Source: Escherichia coli (GTDB lineage: Bacteria > Pseudomonadota > Gammaproteobacteria > Enterobacterales > Enterobacteriaceae). Taken from it: a stretch of DNA of 64,000 nucleotides. Where the stretch lies: assembly GCF_022846255.1 (NCBI RefSeq), contig NZ_AP025682.1, one strand, 5' to 3'. Shown one piece after another: positions 7,290 to 55,669 of the stretch (positions within the stretch are counted from its first letter, which is position 1; every line of letters starts with the position of its first letter). Below the pieces are notes generated by a model. It was not told where the DNA came from, did no database searches, and worked only from the letters and a program-made list of their open reading frames with translations. The translations under genes were made by a program, and so were the position numbers.

Positions 7290-8831
7290 ATGGCTTTTGC
7301 CTCATTAATTGAACGCCAGCGCATTCGCCTGCTGCTGGCGTTATTATTCGGTGCCTGCGGAACGCTGGCCTTCTCTCCTTACGATGTCTGGCCTGCGGCG
7401 ATTATTTCGCTGATGGGGCTTCAGGCGCTGACCTTTAACCGCCGTCCACTCCAGTCTGCCGCTATTGGCTTTTGCTGGGGATTTGGTCTCTTTGGCAGCG
7501 GTATTAACTGGGTCTATGTCAGCATCGCGACCTTTGGCGGAATGCCTGGCCCGGTTAACATCTTCCTGGTGGTACTGCTGGCGGCGTATTTGTCGCTGTA
7601 TACCGGACTGTTTGCTGGCGTGCTGTCGCGTCTGTGGCCGAAAACCACCTGGCTGCGCGTGGCGATTGCCGCTCCTGCTCTCTGGCAAGTGACCGAGTTT
7701 CTGCGCGGTTGGGTGCTGACTGGCTTCCCGTGGTTACAGTTCGGCTATAGCCAGATTGATGGCCCGTTAAAAGGGCTGGCACCGCTAATGGGCGTGGAAG
7801 CCATTAACTTCCTGCTTATGATGGTTAGCGGCCTGCTGGCACTGGCGTTAGTCAAACGCAACTGGCGTCCGCTGGTGGTGGCCGTCGTGCTGTTTGCCCT
7901 ACCCTTCCCGCTGCGTTACATCCAGTGGTTTACCCCGCAACCGGAGAAAACCATTCAGGTTTCGATGGTTCAGGGCGATATTCCGCAATCGCTGAAATGG
8001 GACGAAGGCCAGCTTCTTAATACGCTGAAGATTTACTACAACGCAACGGCACCGCTGATGGGCAAATCATCGTTGATTATCTGGCCGGAGTCGGCGATAA
8101 CCGATCTGGAAATTAATCAGCAACCGTTCCTCAAAGCTCTGGACGGTGAGTTGCGCGATAAAGGTAGCTCGCTGGTCACCGGGATTGTCGACGCGCGTCT
8201 CAATAAGCAGAACCGCTACGATACCTACAACACCATCATCACACTGGGTAAAGGTGCACCGTACAGCTACGAATCAGCCGATCGCTATAACAAAAACCAT
8301 CTGGTGCCGTTTGGCGAGTTTGTCCCGCTCGAGTCGATTCTGCGTCCGTTAGCACCGTTCTTTGATCTGCCGATGTCGTCGTTCAGCCGTGGGCCATATA
8401 TCCAGCCGCCGCTGTCGGTAAATGGTATTGAGCTTACTGCGGCTATTTGCTACGAGATCATTCTCGGCGAGCAAGTGCGCGATAACTTCCGCCCGGATAC
8501 CGACTATCTGCTGACTATCTCCAACGATGCGTGGTTTGGTAAGTCTATTGGTCCATGGCAGCACTTCCAGATGGCGCGAATGCGTGCGTTGGAGCTGGCG
8601 CGCCCATTGCTGCGTAGCACCAACAACGGTATTACGGCGGTGATTGGCCCGCAGGGTGAGATTCAGGCAATGATCCCGCAGTTCACCCGCGAAGTGTTGA
8701 CCACTAACGTGACGCCGACCACCGGACTCACACCGTACGCACGTACCGGCAACTGGCCGCTGTGGGTACTGACGGCATTGTTTGGTTTTGCCGCCGTGTT
8801 GATGAGTCTGCGTCAACGACGTAAACGTTGA
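7290..8831 (+). CDS. lnt: apolipoprotein N-acyltransferase
   Basis: 513-aa translation, N-terminal multi-TM region plus C-terminal CN-hydrolase domain; recognised as Lnt. Confidence 0.95.
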
Positions 8832-8963: not shown

Positions 8964-10841
8964 TTACGGTTCAGGGATACAAGCCACATTGCCATATTGG
9001 GGATGCCGAATAATTGCCTGCGGATCAAGCGAGCGCGTCCTGTCCAGTTGGATTAACCCGTTCTTCGCCATAACAAATATCTTTCTACCATCCGCTGAAA
9101 AACGAAGGTGATTAACGTAGCTGGCAGGATAAACGCCAATAATCTGCCCGGCATTAATATTGAGCAGGATGACATAACCTTGCAGGCCATATGACACCAA
9201 CGCTAAATATTGACCGTCCGGGCTAATACCCTCAACGGAATAAACGCTCCTGCTACACCATTGCGTCATAATGCTGGCTTGTTGATCCCCTACGCTTATA
9301 CGTGAAATCCCCTGGCTATCGGCAAAAATAATCTCGCCATTTTTTGGTCGGAATCCCATCGCAGAAACGACACCACGCGCATCACCTGTGGGAAAGTCTT
9401 CTTTCTGATGCGTGATGGTATTGATGCGTACAATGTCGCCTCTGACCATACCGGGTATCAACAATGTTTTTTCATCCGGGGAAAGTGCCATAACCCAGGC
9501 GCCTGGTTTACCGCTCGTCCCCGTCCCGTCGTATTTCTCCAGCGGGATATCCGCCACATGCTGATAAGTCACCAGATCAATGGCTGACACACTATTACTG
9601 GTGCGATTCATCACCCAGGCTTTTGTGCCATCACGCGAGAGGATAAGACTGTCAGGATGTGCACCGGTGGTAATCGACTGAATAATCTCCCCCGTCGCCA
9701 CGTTAATGACCGATAACGCATTCGCTTCAAATGAAGTTGCATAAAGCAACGTTTCATCCGGGCTTAACGCCAGCGATCTGACGCCCTGATCTTTACAGCC
9801 ACCACAATGTTTGAGTGACTTTTCTTTCGCTATGGGCGCTGTAAAGGTATGCAGGATTTTCTTTTGTCCGAGGTCGAAAACAACAATACTGTTGGTGTTT
9901 TCAATTGCGGCATATAACGTATTACCATCCCGATTGATCGCCATATCATGGATATCGGCAATCTCAGCGAGTAAATCACCACTGGCCTGCTCACGACTTA
10001 CCGGAGCGGATAATGTTTCCGTGAGGGCGTTGCGCTCCTCCACTAACTGCTGCTTTTTTTGTCGTCGCTCTTGTTCAATCTCCTGCGGATAAAACTCTTC
10101 ACGCAGGCTTTGCCTGACCTGTAAAACTGATTCATCAATCTGCTGCTGCACAAGCCAGATAGCCCCGGTCAGAAGAAGAGTGACCGCAACAATAATTCCG
10201 CCTTCCGTAACGAATCGGTTTTGCCCAACTAAACGCGCGCTCAGCCAACCCAACGCACCACCCGCAATCAGGCCGCCAATGTGGCAAGCGTTATCTATTC
10301 CTGTTTGCCGGGCACCGTACAACAGTGTCAGCGCCACCATACCCAACAGAGGAAATACTCGCCGCTGGTTTTTATGGTGTGTGCCCGCACCTAAAGCAAG
10401 CTGTGTTGCTATCGCAGCGCCAGCTATTCCCATAATCGCCCCGGATGCCCCAACGCTGATGACTATCTGCTCACTTTCGCGTAACGCATAACAGGCACTG
10501 ATTAGCCCACCAAAGACGCCAGAGAATAGCCAGACAATCAGGAGTCGCCATTTCCCCAGTATCCGCTCCGCCACTGCCCCCACCACCAGAAGTGCAAACA
10601 TATTCATCAGCAAATGGGGAAAACTACTGTGCAGAAAGACACTGCTCAATAAGCGCCAGGATTCATCCGACAACGTGAGAGAAGCAACGTTAGCGCCGAG
10701 ATGGATGAGTGCGGATTGATCGACTTCTTCGTAACTCATCCATTGTGCGAGGTAACAAAATATCCCAACACAGAACGCAAAAAGGATCAGGGTTATTGCG
10801 GGTAATTGAACATTTAACGGCTTAACCGAAGATGCAGACAT
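8964..10841 (-). CDS. rhomboid-family intramembrane serine protease (6+1 TM) fused to a C-terminal seven-bladed YVTN-type beta-propeller
   Basis: 625-aa ORF. Rhomboid motifs read in the translation: L1 WR (WRLLSSVF), TM2 LHSSFPHLLMNMF, catalytic GASG (VGASGAIMG), catalytic His (ACHIGGLIAGG), extra 7th helix GGIIVAVTLLLTGAIWLV, charged linker EQERRQKKQQLVEERNAL, then seven SPDG/SRDG-like blade repeats. Confidence 0.8.
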   Translation of the reverse strand: MSASSVKPLNVQLPAITLILFAFCVGIFCYLAQWMSYEEVDQSALIHLGANVASLTLSDESWRLLSSVFLHSSFPHLLMNMFALLVVGAVAERILGKWRLLIVWLFSGVFGGLISACYALRESEQIVISVGASGAIMGIAGAAIATQLALGAGTHHKNQRRVFPLLGMVALTLLYGARQTGIDNACHIGGLIAGGALGWLSARLVGQNRFVTEGGIIVAVTLLLTGAIWLVQQQIDESVLQVRQSLREEFYPQEIEQERRQKKQQLVEERNALTETLSAPVSREQASGDLLAEIADIHDMAINRDGNTLYAAIENTNSIVVFDLGQKKILHTFTAPIAKEKSLKHCGGCKDQGVRSLALSPDETLLYATSFEANALSVINVATGEIIQSITTGAHPDSLILSRDGTKAWVMNRTSNSVSAIDLVTYQHVADIPLEKYDGTGTSGKPGAWVMALSPDEKTLLIPGMVRGDIVRINTITHQKEDFPTGDARGVVSAMGFRPKNGEIIFADSQGISRISVGDQQASIMTQWCSRSVYSVEGISPDGQYLALVSYGLQGYVILLNINAGQIIGVYPASYVNHLRFSADGRKIFVMAKNGLIQLDRTRSLDPQAIIRHPQYGNVACIPEP

Positions 10842-10998
10842 AAGGTGTTTCTTCCTTGAAAAGACAGGTAAAAAGCATTTTTCCCGTGTGCAGTTATCAT
10901 CCCGGCAAACGTCCCATGCCGAAAAGATAACTCTGTCCGAAATATGACTTTTTCAGCCTAAAATTACAATCGTAATTAATTCACCCCTAAGTATTTTT

Positions 10999-11014
10999 TG
11001 GCATGTAAGTTGCT
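10999..11014 (+). promoter_or_regulatory. candidate sigma54 (-24/-12) promoter upstream of gltI
   Basis: TGGCAT-gtaag-TTGCT; GG at 11000-11001 and GC at 11012-11013 with exact 10-nt spacing; about 280 nt upstream of the gltI start. Confidence 0.35.
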
Positions 11015-11295
11015 TTATTTACTGTGTAAGCAATGAAATCAGCCGCAACGCAACCGGGTTGCACCACCACAAATCAGCGGTAGCACCAAAAAGGTGCGGT
11101 TTAAGAATTTTGCTTCGGAATGGTGCGGCGCATCTCGCAAAAACAAACAATAAAACAGCAATATCTTTACATTTAGTCAAACTAAATGTTACCTAACAGG
11201 CACAACACTGCACAATAAAGTTGCAGACGATAACAACACAAACACTCACAACGGGTATCCATGCGTTCTTAACGCAGAAGATAAAGGAGTTGGAT

Positions 11296-12204
11296 ATGCA
11301 ATTACGTAAACCTGCCACAGCAATCCTGGCCCTGGCGCTTTCCGCAGGACTGGCACAGGCAGATGACGCCGCCCCGGCAGCAGGCAGCACGCTGGACAAA
11401 ATCGCCAAAAACGGCGTGATTGTCGTCGGTCACCGTGAATCTTCAGTACCTTTCTCTTATTACGACAATCAGCAAAAAGTGGTGGGCTACTCGCAGGATT
11501 ACTCCAACGCCATTGTTGAAGCAGTGAAAAAGAAACTCAACAAACCAGACTTACAGGTGAAATTGATTCCGATCACCTCACAAAACCGTATTCCACTGCT
11601 GCAAAACGGCACTTTCGATTTTGAATGCGGTTCTACCACCAACAATGCCGAACGCCAAAAACAGGCGGCTTTCTCTGACACTATTTTCGTGGTCGGTACG
11701 CGCCTGTTGACCAAAAAGGGTGGCGATATCAAAGATTTCGCCGATCTGAAAGGCAAAGCCGTAGTCGTCACTTCCGGCACTACCTCTGAAGTTTTGCTCA
11801 ACAAACTGAATGAAGAGCAAAAAATGAATATGCGAATTATCAGCGCCAAAGATCACGGTGACTCTTTCCGTACCCTGGAAAGCGGTCGTGCCGTTGCCTT
11901 TATGATGGATGATGCTCTGCTGGCTGGTGAACGTGCGAAAGCGAAGAAACCAGACAACTGGGAAATCGTCGGCAAGCCGCAGTCTCAGGAAGCCTACGGT
12001 TGCATGTTGCGTAAAGACGATCCGCAGTTCAAAAAGCTGATGGATGACACTATCGCTCAGGTGCAGACCTCCGGTGAAGCGGAAAAATGGTTTGATAAGT
12101 GGTTCAAAAATCCAATTCCGCCGAAAAACCTGAACATGAATTTCGAACTGTCGTACGAAATGAAAGCACTGTTCAAAGAACCGAATGACAAGGCACTGAA
12201 CTAA
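11296..12204 (+). CDS. gltI: glutamate/aspartate ABC transporter periplasmic binding protein
   Basis: ORF 11221..12204; start set at the Met of the signal peptide MQLRKPATAILALALSAGLAQA (ATG 11296, aaggag SD 7 nt upstream). Confidence 0.95.
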   Translation: MQLRKPATAILALALSAGLAQADDAAPAAGSTLDKIAKNGVIVVGHRESSVPFSYYDNQQKVVGYSQDYSNAIVEAVKKKLNKPDLQVKLIPITSQNRIPLLQNGTFDFECGSTTNNAERQKQAAFSDTIFVVGTRLLTKKGGDIKDFADLKGKAVVVTSGTTSEVLLNKLNEEQKMNMRIISAKDHGDSFRTLESGRAVAFMMDDALLAGERAKAKKPDNWEIVGKPQSQEAYGCMLRKDDPQFKKLMDDTIAQVQTSGEAEKWFDKWFKNPIPPKNLNMNFELSYEMKALFKEPNDKALN

Positions 12205-12205
12205 T

Positions 12206-12360
12206 TACAAGAACCAGGGGCGGAAATTCCAGCCCTCTCGATTGTTACGTAGCACGGACAGACTATACGCCTGGTGGTCGTTCCCCATCGGGCCTGAAAA
12301 CCGCAATACGCTGGGTAACAATCTTCGAGGGTAGCAGTTAACGCTGCTACCCTCTTTTTT
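12206..12360 (+). ncRNA. sroC: SroC sRNA (GcvB sponge) from the gltI-gltJ spacer
   Basis: Position between gltI stop and gltJ start; ends in hairpin gagggtagcag-ttaacg-ctgctaccctc plus tttttt (12327-12360); identity assigned from locus knowledge, not alignment. Confidence 0.5.
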
Positions 12361-12373
12361 CTGGAGTAGATTT

Positions 12374-55117: not shown

Positions 55118-55240
55118 CGCCTGGTTTTATTTATTTTCCAGCTCAATAGCAAATTCAGATCAAATCAGCCTCGCAAATCATAGATTCATAACCAATAATG
55201 TGCTGTTATGTATACATGCAAAAACAAGGAGAGAATGCTT

Positions 55241-55669
55241 ATGTACAAAACAATCATCATGCCAGTGGATGTTTTCGAAATGGAATTGAGCGACAAAGCG
55301 ATTCGCCACGCTGAATTCCTCGCCCAGGATGACGGAGTTATTCATCTACTTCACGTACTACCGGGGTCAGCCAGCCTGAGCCTGCACCGTTTTGCCGCTG
55401 ATGTACGTCGTTTTGAAGAGCATCTGCAACATGAAGCAGAAGAACGTTTGCAAACGATGGTCAGCCACTTTACCATCGATCCTTCCCGCATTAAGCAACA
55501 TGTCCGTTTTGGTAGTGTGCGGGATGAAGTTAACGAGTTAGCGAAAGAACTTGATGCAGATGTAGTAGTGATTGGTTCGCGTAACCCATCAATTTCAACT
55601 CATCTGTTGGGTTCTAACGCCTCGAGCGTAATCCGCCACGCCAATTTGCCGGTGCTGGTTGTGCGTTAA
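55241..55669 (+). CDS. uspG: universal stress protein G
   Basis: ORF 55208..55669; start set at [26 protein letters not shown] with aaggagag SD; 142 aa. Confidence 0.9.

What the first reader, a model, noticed from the sequence alone, without database searches (positions are those of the whole stretch)
10999..11097. Sigma54-type -24/-12 element and NtrC-like palindrome upstream of gltI
TGGCAT-N5-TTGCT at 10999-11014 matches the sigma54 consensus (TGGCAC-N5-TTGCA) with exact GG-N10-GC spacing and is oriented toward gltI. A palindrome GCACC-aaaaa-GGTGC at 11083-11097 resembles NtrC half-sites (TGCACC/GGTGCA). The gltIJKL transporter is known to be nitrogen-regulated. The odd point is that the NtrC-like site is downstream of the -24/-12 element rather than upstream, so either the enhancer is elsewhere or the palindrome serves another purpose. 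The long leader that follows contains CA-rich runs (acaacacaaacactcacaac) typical of GcvB target sites.
Basis: partly seen in the sequence, partly recalled or inferred. Interest (0 to 1): 0.4.

Follow-up and report, generated by a model that had tools for sequence, protein, structure and literature searches.

The report
Known nitrogen-regulated promoter of gltI
This is the already documented sigma-54/NtrC (nitrogen-starvation) promoter of the E. coli glutamate/aspartate transporter operon gltIJKL, ordinary except that its activator sites lie downstream of the promoter rather than upstream, an arrangement kept in 81 Enterobacteriaceae genomes.

Summary
TGGCAT-N5-TTGCT (10999-11014, + strand) is the best sigma-54 match in the 64-kb window (20.9 bits). 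It is the ortholog of sites bound by sigma-54 in E. coli K-12 (ChIP-seq) and Salmonella LT2 (ChIP-chip). NtrC binds the same K-12 region in vivo and in vitro, and gltI (ybeJ) expression falls in rpoN mutants of E. coli strains lacking the K-12 IS5 insertion. The CA-rich run is the published GcvB target, 45 nt upstream of the start codon.

The "odd point" is real. In 81 Enterobacteriaceae genomes the -24/-12 core and the dyad GCAC-N7-GTGC (11083-11097) are invariant, and the dyad always lies downstream of the promoter. No NtrC-like dyad lies upstream, and no second sigma-54 promoter lies downstream. Nine other K-12 NtrC promoters scanned the same way show dyads only upstream.

The likeliest reading is a downstream enhancer in the transcribed leader (+44 to +95), sitting between the sigma-54 promoter and a putative proximal sigma-70 promoter. 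That enhancer role is inferred, not shown. The promoter, the regulators and the GcvB site are already known; only the geometry is a modest, testable curiosity.

The parts
10999..11016 (+). Sigma-54 -24/-12 promoter element TGGCATGTAAGTTGCTTT of gltIJKL. The start site predicted from the -12 GC is about 11024-11027, giving a leader of about 270 nt.
   Evidence: PWM 20.9 bits, top of the window. TGGCA and TTGC are invariant in 81 genomes. Orthologs are bound by sigma-54 in K-12 and Salmonella. The start site is inferred, not mapped.
11060..11076 (.). NtrC-like site 1: a strong left half-site TGCACCA with a weak right half. Its centre lies at about +44 from the predicted start.
   Evidence: GC.C is invariant and the rest of GCACCA is at least 90% conserved in 81 genomes. 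The centre is 22 bp from the centre of site 2 (sequence).
11082..11098 (.). NtrC-like site 2: AGCACCAAAAAGGTGCG, 14 of 17 matches to TGCACCA-N3-TGGTGCA with a perfect GCAC-N7-GTGC core. Its centre lies at about +66, or +84 from the centre of the -24/-12 element.
   Evidence: The core is invariant. The exact dyad occurs in 74 of the 81 loci then held; it is the sole match in 71 of them and always includes site 2.
11111..11127 (.). NtrC-like site 3: TGCTTCGGAATGGTGCG, with a degenerate left half and a conserved right half TGGTGCG. Its centre lies at about +95.
   Evidence: GTGCGG is invariant and TTTTGC is at least 90% conserved. The distance from site 2 is fixed at 40 bp in 80 of 81 genomes. 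Assigning it to NtrC is an inference.
11120..11199 (+). Near-invariant 80-bp block. It overlaps site 3 and contains A-rich tracts and a putative sigma-70 promoter: -35 TTTACA at 11166-11171 and an extended -10, TGtTACCTA, at 11187-11195.
   Evidence: Mean column conservation is 0.88-0.93. There are no indels from site 2 to TTTACA in 80 of 81 genomes. The strict consensus scan does not call a sigma-70 promoter here, so the promoter assignment is an inference. It fits the statement that gltIJKL has both sigma-70 and sigma-54 promoters (PMC9731577).
11194..11197 (.). CTAA, the target site where IS5D is inserted in E. coli K-12. The insertion separates both promoters from gltI.
   Evidence: PMC9731577 attributes weak nitrogen induction in K-12 to this IS5.
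11223..11252 (+). C/A-rich GcvB target and translational enhancer in the gltI 5' UTR.
   Evidence: The duplex with GcvB R1 is -33.2 kcal/mol and unique among the sampled windows. The position matches the published "45 nt upstream of the initiation codon".
11263..11275 (+). Small 5' UTR hairpin GCGTT-ctt-AACGC between the GcvB site and the Shine-Dalgarno sequence (AAGGAG, 11284-11289).
   Evidence: 88.8% of cells are paired, and 4 of 5 pairs show changes on both sides across 36 genomes. Support is modest.
11296..12204 (+). gltI (ybeJ) coding sequence, the periplasmic glutamate/aspartate-binding protein. gltJKL follow.
   Evidence: ORF list. RefSeq annotation of near-identical genomes.
12200..12362 (+). 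sroC, the sRNA derived from the gltI 3' UTR that acts as a sponge for GcvB.
   Evidence: Rfam RF00369, 172.6 bits.

Best explanation
Window 10999-11016 is the NtrC-activated sigma-54 promoter of gltIJKL.

Proposed mechanism:
1. RNA polymerase with sigma-54 sits there as a closed complex.
2. Under nitrogen limitation, phosphorylated NtrC binds a cluster of sites at 11060-11127. The cluster has one perfect-core dyad flanked by two partial sites, all downstream of the promoter at about +44, +66 and +95.
3. NtrC oligomerises and reaches back to the polymerase by looping 60-110 bp of DNA. Its ATPase then drives open-complex formation.
4. The transcript runs through the enhancer and through a proximal, probably sigma-70, promoter at 11166-11195. 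It carries the same 5' UTR elements as the short transcript: the C/A-rich GcvB target at 11223-11252, a small hairpin and the Shine-Dalgarno sequence.

Shown by sequence here or by cited experiments: the motif and its conservation; sigma-54 binding at the orthologous sites; NtrC binding to the orthologous region; rpoN dependence of gltI; and the GcvB target.

Inferred: the sigma-54 start site; that the three sites are the NtrC sites; that they act as the enhancer from downstream; and the sigma-70 promoter.

My sub-confidences are 0.95 for a genuine sigma-54 promoter, 0.8 for site 2 being an NtrC site, and about 0.65 for the downstream cluster being the working enhancer.
For: Sigma-54 promoter:
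- The motif is the top PWM hit of the window.
- It is the only exact consensus match in the window.
- The -24/-12 core is invariant in 81 genomes, while the sequence to its left is unalignable (lnt 3' end, REP elements, or a rhomboid gene).
- Two E. coli haplotypes are 20% identical upstream and 35% identical in 11017-11050. They still keep the core and the exact spacing.

Experiments on orthologs:
- Sigma-54 ChIP-seq site OS04 in K-12 and ChIP-chip in Salmonella.
- NtrC ChIP-seq peak at 688381-688461.
- RpoN and NtrC genomic SELEX on the insH-lnt spacer.
- ybeJ is down in delta-rpoN CFT073 and EDL933.
- SroC/gltI is induced under nitrogen limitation in strains without IS5.

Downstream enhancer:
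- The dyad GCAC-N7-GTGC occurs in 74 of the 81 loci then held. It is the only match in 71 of them and always includes site 2.
- Within about 200 bp upstream of the promoter there are 0 exact dyads in 81 genomes, against 75 downstream.
- No sigma-54 PWM hit above 9.8 bits lies downstream of the sites, and none above 8.3 bits lies on the minus strand.
- The same scan at nine other K-12 NtrC/sigma-54 promoters finds dyads only upstream, at -68 to -313. These include positions consistent with the known glnA (-121, -89) and glnH sites. At gltI it finds them only downstream, at +84.
- +84 mirrors the -89 of the proximal sites at glnA and glnH.
Against: - No start site is mapped for the sigma-54 promoter in any source I could read.
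- NtrC ChIP-seq resolution cannot place the sites. At glnK, glnH and rutA the reported peaks centre within about 20 bp of the -24/-12 motif even though those enhancers are upstream. The 38-bp downstream offset at gltI is therefore only suggestive.
- Sites 1 and 3 are partial matches to the NtrC consensus.
- The sites are rigidly spaced to the proximal promoter (no indels in 80 of 81 genomes). Their distance to the sigma-54 element varies from 83 to 119 bp. They could therefore belong functionally to the proximal promoter.
- In Salmonella a promiscuous, DNA-binding-independent activator raised gltIJKL only 1.8-fold.
- The sigma-70 promoter is not called by the strict consensus scan.
Confidence: 0.75

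Rival explanations
1. The sigma-54 promoter is real, but the dyad cluster at 11060-11127 mainly serves the proximal promoter. NtrC or another protein would bind at about -134, -112 and -83 from the proximal start and repress or tune sigma-70 transcription. The sigma-54 promoter would then be activated by NtrC from solution or from a weak or unrecognised site.
For: Spacing from site 2 to TTTACA is fixed in 80 of 81 genomes, while spacing to the sigma-54 element varies from 83 to 119 bp. The block 11120-11199 is more conserved than a simple promoter needs. At glnA, NtrC sites double as repressor sites for a sigma-70 promoter (established knowledge of glnAp1/glnAp2).
Against: The sites do not overlap the putative -35 or -10. 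No other NtrC-type dyad exists within about 2 kb in any genome. Variable distance is what is expected for an enhancer. The two roles are not exclusive.
Confidence: 0.15
2. The palindrome acts as an RNA hairpin (attenuator or stabiliser) in the long sigma-54 leader, not as a protein-binding site.
For: It lies in the predicted transcribed leader and can form a 5-bp stem.
Against: Both half-sites are invariant at the DNA level and show no compensatory change, while the loop varies. The stem is short. The leader as a whole folds no better than shuffled sequence (z = -1.62). No terminator-like site is predicted on the + strand. The sequence matches the NtrC consensus, and NtrC binds the region.
Confidence: 0.03
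3. The motifs are chance matches with no function.
For: Matches with one mismatch to the sigma-54 consensus, or three mismatches to the NtrC consensus, occur at chance frequency in the window.
Against: The exact matches are rare, this is the top PWM hit, the core columns are invariant in 81 genomes, and the orthologs are bound experimentally.
Confidence: 0.01

Closest known systems
gltIp, the sigma-54 promoter of E. coli K-12 and Salmonella LT2 gltIJKL (ybeJ-gltJKL)
   Same: It is the orthologous sequence in the same position relative to the NtrC-like sites and to gltI. It is bound by sigma-54 in both organisms, and the region is bound by NtrC in K-12.
   Different: In this window the promoter is intact and adjacent to a rhomboid-family gene. 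In K-12, IS5 separates it from gltI. The -24 hexamer is TGGCAT here, not TGGCAC.
The glnAp1/glnAp2 dual promoter with an NtrC enhancer (E. coli/Salmonella glnALG)
   Same: A sigma-54 promoter is combined with a sigma-70 promoter, and NtrC dyads of the TGCACC-N5-GGTGCA type lie about 85-120 bp from the sigma-54 element.
   Different: The order is mirrored. At glnA the sigma-70 promoter and the enhancer are upstream of the sigma-54 promoter. Here the sigma-54 promoter comes first, and the dyads lie downstream of it, between the two promoters.
Natural downstream enhancers of other sigma-54 activators (Vibrio cholerae FlrC at flaA/flgK; Caulobacter FlbD ftr elements), and the experimental relocation of NtrC sites downstream of glnAp2
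   Same: Activator sites lie downstream of the sigma-54 start site and still activate by looping.
   Different: They involve different activators or artificial constructs. For enteric NtrC I read no description of a natural downstream enhancer.
GcvB-targeted C/A-rich elements in ABC-transporter mRNAs (gltI, oppA, dppA, argT and others)
   Same: This is the published gltI target itself: a C/A-rich sequence 45 nt upstream of the AUG, complementary to GcvB R1.
   Different: None of note.

Membership tests
Sigma-54 (-24/-12) promoter | GG and GC dinucleotides separated by exactly 10 bp within TGGCAC-N5-TTGCW | tested here: met
   TGGCATGTAAGTTGCT at 10999-11014. It is the only exact match in the window.
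Sigma-54 (-24/-12) promoter | Quantitative match to experimentally bound sites | tested here: met
   20.9 bits against a training median of 18.9, top of the window, not exceeded in any of 200 shuffles (largest 20.9).
Sigma-54 (-24/-12) promoter | Sigma-54 holoenzyme binds the site | not testable with these tools
   Published for the orthologs: K-12 ChIP-seq OS04 and genomic SELEX, and Salmonella ChIP-chip.
Sigma-54 (-24/-12) promoter | Transcription of the downstream gene depends on rpoN, and the start site lies about 12 nt downstream of the GC | not testable with these tools
   ybeJ is down in delta-rpoN CFT073 and EDL933. I found no mapped sigma-54 start site. The only gltI start site I found is from IS5-disrupted K-12, with a 52-nt 5' UTR.
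NtrC enhancer (upstream activating sequence) | Dyad TGCACCA-N3-TGGTGCA | tested here: met
   Site 2 matches 14 of 17 positions with a perfect GCAC-N7-GTGC core. The core is invariant in 81 genomes.
NtrC enhancer (upstream activating sequence) | At least two adjacent sites, to allow oligomerisation | tested here: inconclusive
   Site 1 (half-site TGCACCA) and site 3 (right half TGGTGCG) are conserved but are only partial matches.
NtrC enhancer (upstream activating sequence) | Located about 80-150 bp upstream of the sigma-54 promoter | tested here: not met
   The sites centre at +62, +84 and +113 from the promoter centre, that is, downstream. Nine other NtrC promoters show dyads upstream only. 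The distance is typical; the side is not.
NtrC enhancer (upstream activating sequence) | NtrC-P binds the sites and is required for activation | not testable with these tools
   NtrC binding is shown at regional resolution in K-12. NtrC control is cited from expression studies I could not read.
GcvB R1 target (C/A-rich element) | Unstructured C/A-rich sequence in the 5' UTR complementary to GcvB R1, at the published position | tested here: met
   The duplex is -33.2 kcal/mol at 11223-11252 and unique among the sampled windows. The element ends 43 nt before the ATG, against the published 45 nt. AACAAC is conserved.
Sigma-70 promoter (proximal gltI promoter) | -35 and -10 hexamers with 16-18 bp spacing | tested here: inconclusive
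   TTTACA, then 18 bp, then TACCTA preceded by TG. These positions are invariant or nearly so. The strict consensus scan finds no promoter because the -10 lacks the final T.

The most novel reading that the evidence does not exclude
The NtrC enhancer of gltIJKL works from inside the transcribed leader, at +44 to +95. This would make it a natural downstream enhancer for enteric NtrC, conserved across Enterobacteriaceae and locked at fixed spacing to a proximal sigma-70 promoter. The arrangement mirrors glnAp1/glnAp2. Each sigma-54 transcript would have to displace its own activator, and NtrC could tune both promoters at once.
Probability: 0.35. Interest if true: 0.4.

Novelty: already known. 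Interest (0 to 1): 0.22.

Why it matters
The element links nitrogen starvation (NtrBC and sigma-54) to glutamate/aspartate scavenging. Through the gltI 3' UTR sRNA SroC it also links nitrogen starvation to the GcvB amino-acid regulon. All of this is published.

The remaining point of interest is architectural. If the conserved downstream dyads are the working enhancer, gltI would be a natural test case for two questions. How does an NtrC-type activator operate from within the transcribed region? And how do a sigma-54 and a sigma-70 promoter share one regulatory module?

Tried and rejected
- A second sigma-54 promoter downstream of the NtrC-like sites, which would make the layout canonical. Rejected: the best PWM score there is 9.8 bits in any of 81 genomes, with a median of -0.1. 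AGGCAC-N4-CTGCA at 11198-11213 has the wrong spacing and is specific to E. coli.
- A sigma-54 promoter on the minus strand. Rejected: the maximum score is 8.3 bits.
- An upstream enhancer. None found within about 200 bp or about 2.2 kb.
- Using the NtrC ChIP-seq peak position to place the enhancer. Rejected as too coarse, because peaks at canonical promoters centre on the -24/-12 motif.
- Helical phasing of the promoter-to-dyad distance (83-85, 96/97, 107, 115/116, 119 bp). The increments are roughly whole turns, but there are too few independent events to count as evidence.
- RNAalifold on the proximal 5' UTR returned no consensus structure. Counting named hairpins gave only modest support.
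- A full-length GcvB duplex calculation over-extended and was discarded in favour of R1 only.
- A conserved small ORF in the leader. Rejected: the ATG at 11121 is not conserved.
- Papers I could not obtain: Reitzer and Schneider 2001, Zimmer 2000, Sharma 2007 and Kroger 2012.
- The held supplements for Klebsiella start sites had no gltI entry.

Full report
**Context.** The window is E. coli. The gene order is corC, lnt (7290-8831, +), a rhomboid-family protease gene (8964-10841, -), gltI (11296-12204, +), gltJKL and rihA. The finding lies in the 455-bp spacer between the rhomboid gene and gltI.

**The observation.** All three features sit at the stated coordinates.
- TGGCATGTAAGTTGCT (10999-11014, + strand) has GG-N10-GC spacing and faces gltI.
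- The degenerate consensus with one mismatch is no rarer than chance (8 found, 6.95 expected).
- The exact pattern is unique in the window (1 found, 0.31 expected).
- I built a PWM from 28 Salmonella intergenic sigma-54 ChIP-chip sites, with gltI excluded. It ranks 10999-11016 first among all positions on both strands, at 20.9 bits. The next hit scores 17.9, the training median is 18.9, and none of 200 shuffles exceeds the observed score (largest 20.9).
- GCACC-N5-GGTGC at 11083-11097 is unique in the window (0.05 expected).

**It is a known promoter.**
- The Salmonella LT2 ortholog TGGCACGTCTATTGCTTT is listed as the gltI sigma-54 site. Its ChIP-chip ratio is 3.2 and its PSSM score is 22.1, among the three best in that genome (PMC3844500).
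- The K-12 ortholog TTGGCACATCTATTGCT is ChIP-seq site OS04 (FAT 21, motif centre 688459, minus strand). It is assigned to insH3 because IS5 lies downstream (PMC4591121). I mapped the K-12 motif to 688458.5 in the same coordinate system.
- NtrC ChIP-seq in nitrogen-starved K-12 gives a 55-fold peak at 688381-688461, labelled gltIJKL (PMC4066584).
- Genomic SELEX finds both RpoN holoenzyme and NtrC on the insH-lnt spacer (PMC8743547).
- In CFT073 and EDL933, which lack the IS5, ybeJ (gltI) is down-regulated in delta-rpoN (PMC9017345).
- PMC9731577 states that gltIJKL has sigma-70 and sigma-54 promoters. It also states that nitrogen induction is marginal in K-12 because of the IS5.
- In K-12 the IS5 sits at CTAA, which corresponds to window 11194-11197. 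The sigma-54 element and the NtrC-like sites are therefore all on the far side of it.

**Conservation.** I aligned 520 nt upstream of gltI from 81 Enterobacteriaceae genomes, from Escherichia to Buttiauxella, Cedecea and Kosakonia.
- Sequence to the left of the -24 element is unalignable. It is the lnt 3' end, REP-like repeats, or the rhomboid gene.
- Invariant columns:
  - TGGCA (10999-11003) and TTGC (11010-11013).
  - GC.C of TGCACCA (11061-64).
  - GC.C and GTGC of the dyad (11083-86, 11094-97).
  - GTGCGG (11123-28) and TCGCAAA (11135-41).
  - TTTACA (11166-71), and a pattern at 11183-11195 that reads as TGnTAnCnA.
- Every genome has a sigma-54 PWM hit of 15.2-22.3 bits at the homologous place.
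- Within E. coli two haplotypes exist. About 3235 of 5423 complete genomes carry the window type with the rhomboid gene; the rest carry the K-12 type. The haplotypes are 20% identical upstream of 10999 and 35% identical in 11017-11050. They still keep the -24/-12 core and the identical distance to the dyad.

**The odd point is real and general.**
- The distance from TGGCA to the dyad is 84 or 85 bp in 65 of 81 genomes. In the rest it is 83, 96/97, 107, 115/116 or 119 bp, always downstream.
- No exact GCAC-N7-GTGC lies in the roughly 200 bp upstream of the promoter in any genome, against 75 downstream.
- The exact dyad occurs in 74 of the 81 loci then held. It is the only match in 71 of them and always includes site 2.
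- No sigma-54-like site follows the dyads (maximum 9.8 bits), and none lies on the other strand (maximum 8.3 bits). A canonical layout is therefore not hiding nearby.
- As a control I ran the same dyad scan around the ChIP-seq motifs of nine other K-12 NtrC-linked sigma-54 promoters: glnK, glnH, rutA, ddpX, astC, yeaG, nac, argT and glnA. Every match was upstream, at -68 to -313. The positions recovered for glnA (-121, -89) and glnH (-115, -102, -89) are consistent with what I recall of the known sites. None was downstream. At gltI, in both the window and K-12, the matches are only downstream, at +84.
- The published NtrC peak centres 38 bp downstream of the sigma-54 motif. Peaks at glnK, glnH and rutA centre within about 20 bp of their motifs even though those enhancers are upstream. 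ChIP-seq therefore cannot settle the site positions.

**Best explanation.** The NtrC-like cluster has three parts:
- Site 1, 11060-76, a strong half-site.
- Site 2, 11082-98, with a perfect core.
- Site 3, 11111-27, with a conserved right half.

The cluster most likely acts as the enhancer of the upstream sigma-54 promoter, working from +44 to +95 of the leader. Its distance to the promoter centre (84 bp for site 2) equals that of the proximal sites at glnA and glnH, but on the other side. This is mechanistically permissible, because such activators act by looping. From my own knowledge, NtrC sites moved downstream still work, and FlrC and FlbD use natural downstream sites.

The rival reading cannot be excluded. 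Spacing from site 2 through GTGCGG to TTTACA is fixed (40 and 43 bp in 80 of 81 genomes). The block 11120-11199 is the most conserved part of the whole spacer (0.88-0.93). The cluster is therefore tightly coupled to the proximal promoter and may also, or mainly, regulate it.

That proximal promoter is TTTACA, then 18 bp, then an extended -10 (TGtTACCTA). It is an inference. The strict scan does not call it, and the only gltI start site I found comes from IS5-disrupted K-12 (PMC3415461 supplement).

An RNA-hairpin role for the palindrome is unlikely:
- The halves are invariant, with no covariation.
- No terminator is predicted on the + strand.
- The leader does not fold unusually well (z = -1.62).

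**The leader.**
- The CA-rich run is the published GcvB target and translational enhancer, located 45 nt upstream of the AUG (PMC3879156; PMC4474525).
- GcvB R1 from K-12 pairs best at 11223-11252, at -33.2 kcal/mol. No other sampled site on the + strand of the 64 kb comes within 2 kcal/mol.
- sroC follows gltI at 12200-12362.

**Verdict.** The promoter, its regulators and the GcvB site are already known. The only part not found in the literature I could read is the conserved downstream placement of the NtrC sites, together with their rigid coupling to a second promoter. That is a modest and testable architectural curiosity. I could not check whether older reviews already mention it.

Noticed in passing
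window 11120-11199: An 80-bp block is the most conserved part of the gltI upstream region in 81 Enterobacteriaceae genomes (0.88-0.93). It has no indels from NtrC-like site 2 to the putative -10 in 80 of 81 genomes. That is more conservation than a -35/-10 pair needs, and the binding protein or proteins are unknown.
   Followed up: partly
window 8964-10841 (- strand) and 10842-11050: A 625-aa rhomboid-family protease gene lies between lnt and gltI. About 3235 of 5423 complete E. coli genomes have it; K-12-type genomes lack it. The two haplotypes are unalignable up to the sigma-54 core and diverged again just after it.
   Followed up: partly
window 11194-11197: CTAA is the target site of the IS5D insertion that separates the promoters from gltI in E. 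coli K-12. Some other complete genomes give split matches ending at this point.
   Followed up: partly
window 55247-55264 (- strand): This is the second-best sigma-54 PWM hit of the window: TGGCATGATGATTGTTTT, 17.9 bits. It lies antisense inside uspG (55208-55669, +). It is not among the sigma-54 ChIP-seq sites in the main-text tables of PMC4591121.
   Followed up: partly
window 12200-12362 (+ strand): sroC sRNA (Rfam RF00369, 172.6 bits) lies at the gltI 3' end. It is the known sponge of GcvB.
   Followed up: yes
window 11263-11275 and 11208-11226: Two small hairpins lie in the proximal 5' UTR. The one between the GcvB site and the Shine-Dalgarno sequence (GCGTT/AACGC) is paired in 88.8% of cells and has four pairs with changes on both sides. 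The 5' one (CTGCA/TGCAG) is replaced by a different stem (CTCGC/GCGAG) in Enterobacter-like genomes.
   Followed up: partly
window 11047-11063: GCAACCGGGTTGC is a 6-bp inverted repeat overlapping the left edge of NtrC-like site 1. It is partly conserved across genera (consensus GTGCAACCnGGTnGCACCA). It could be a further overlapping activator site.
   Followed up: no
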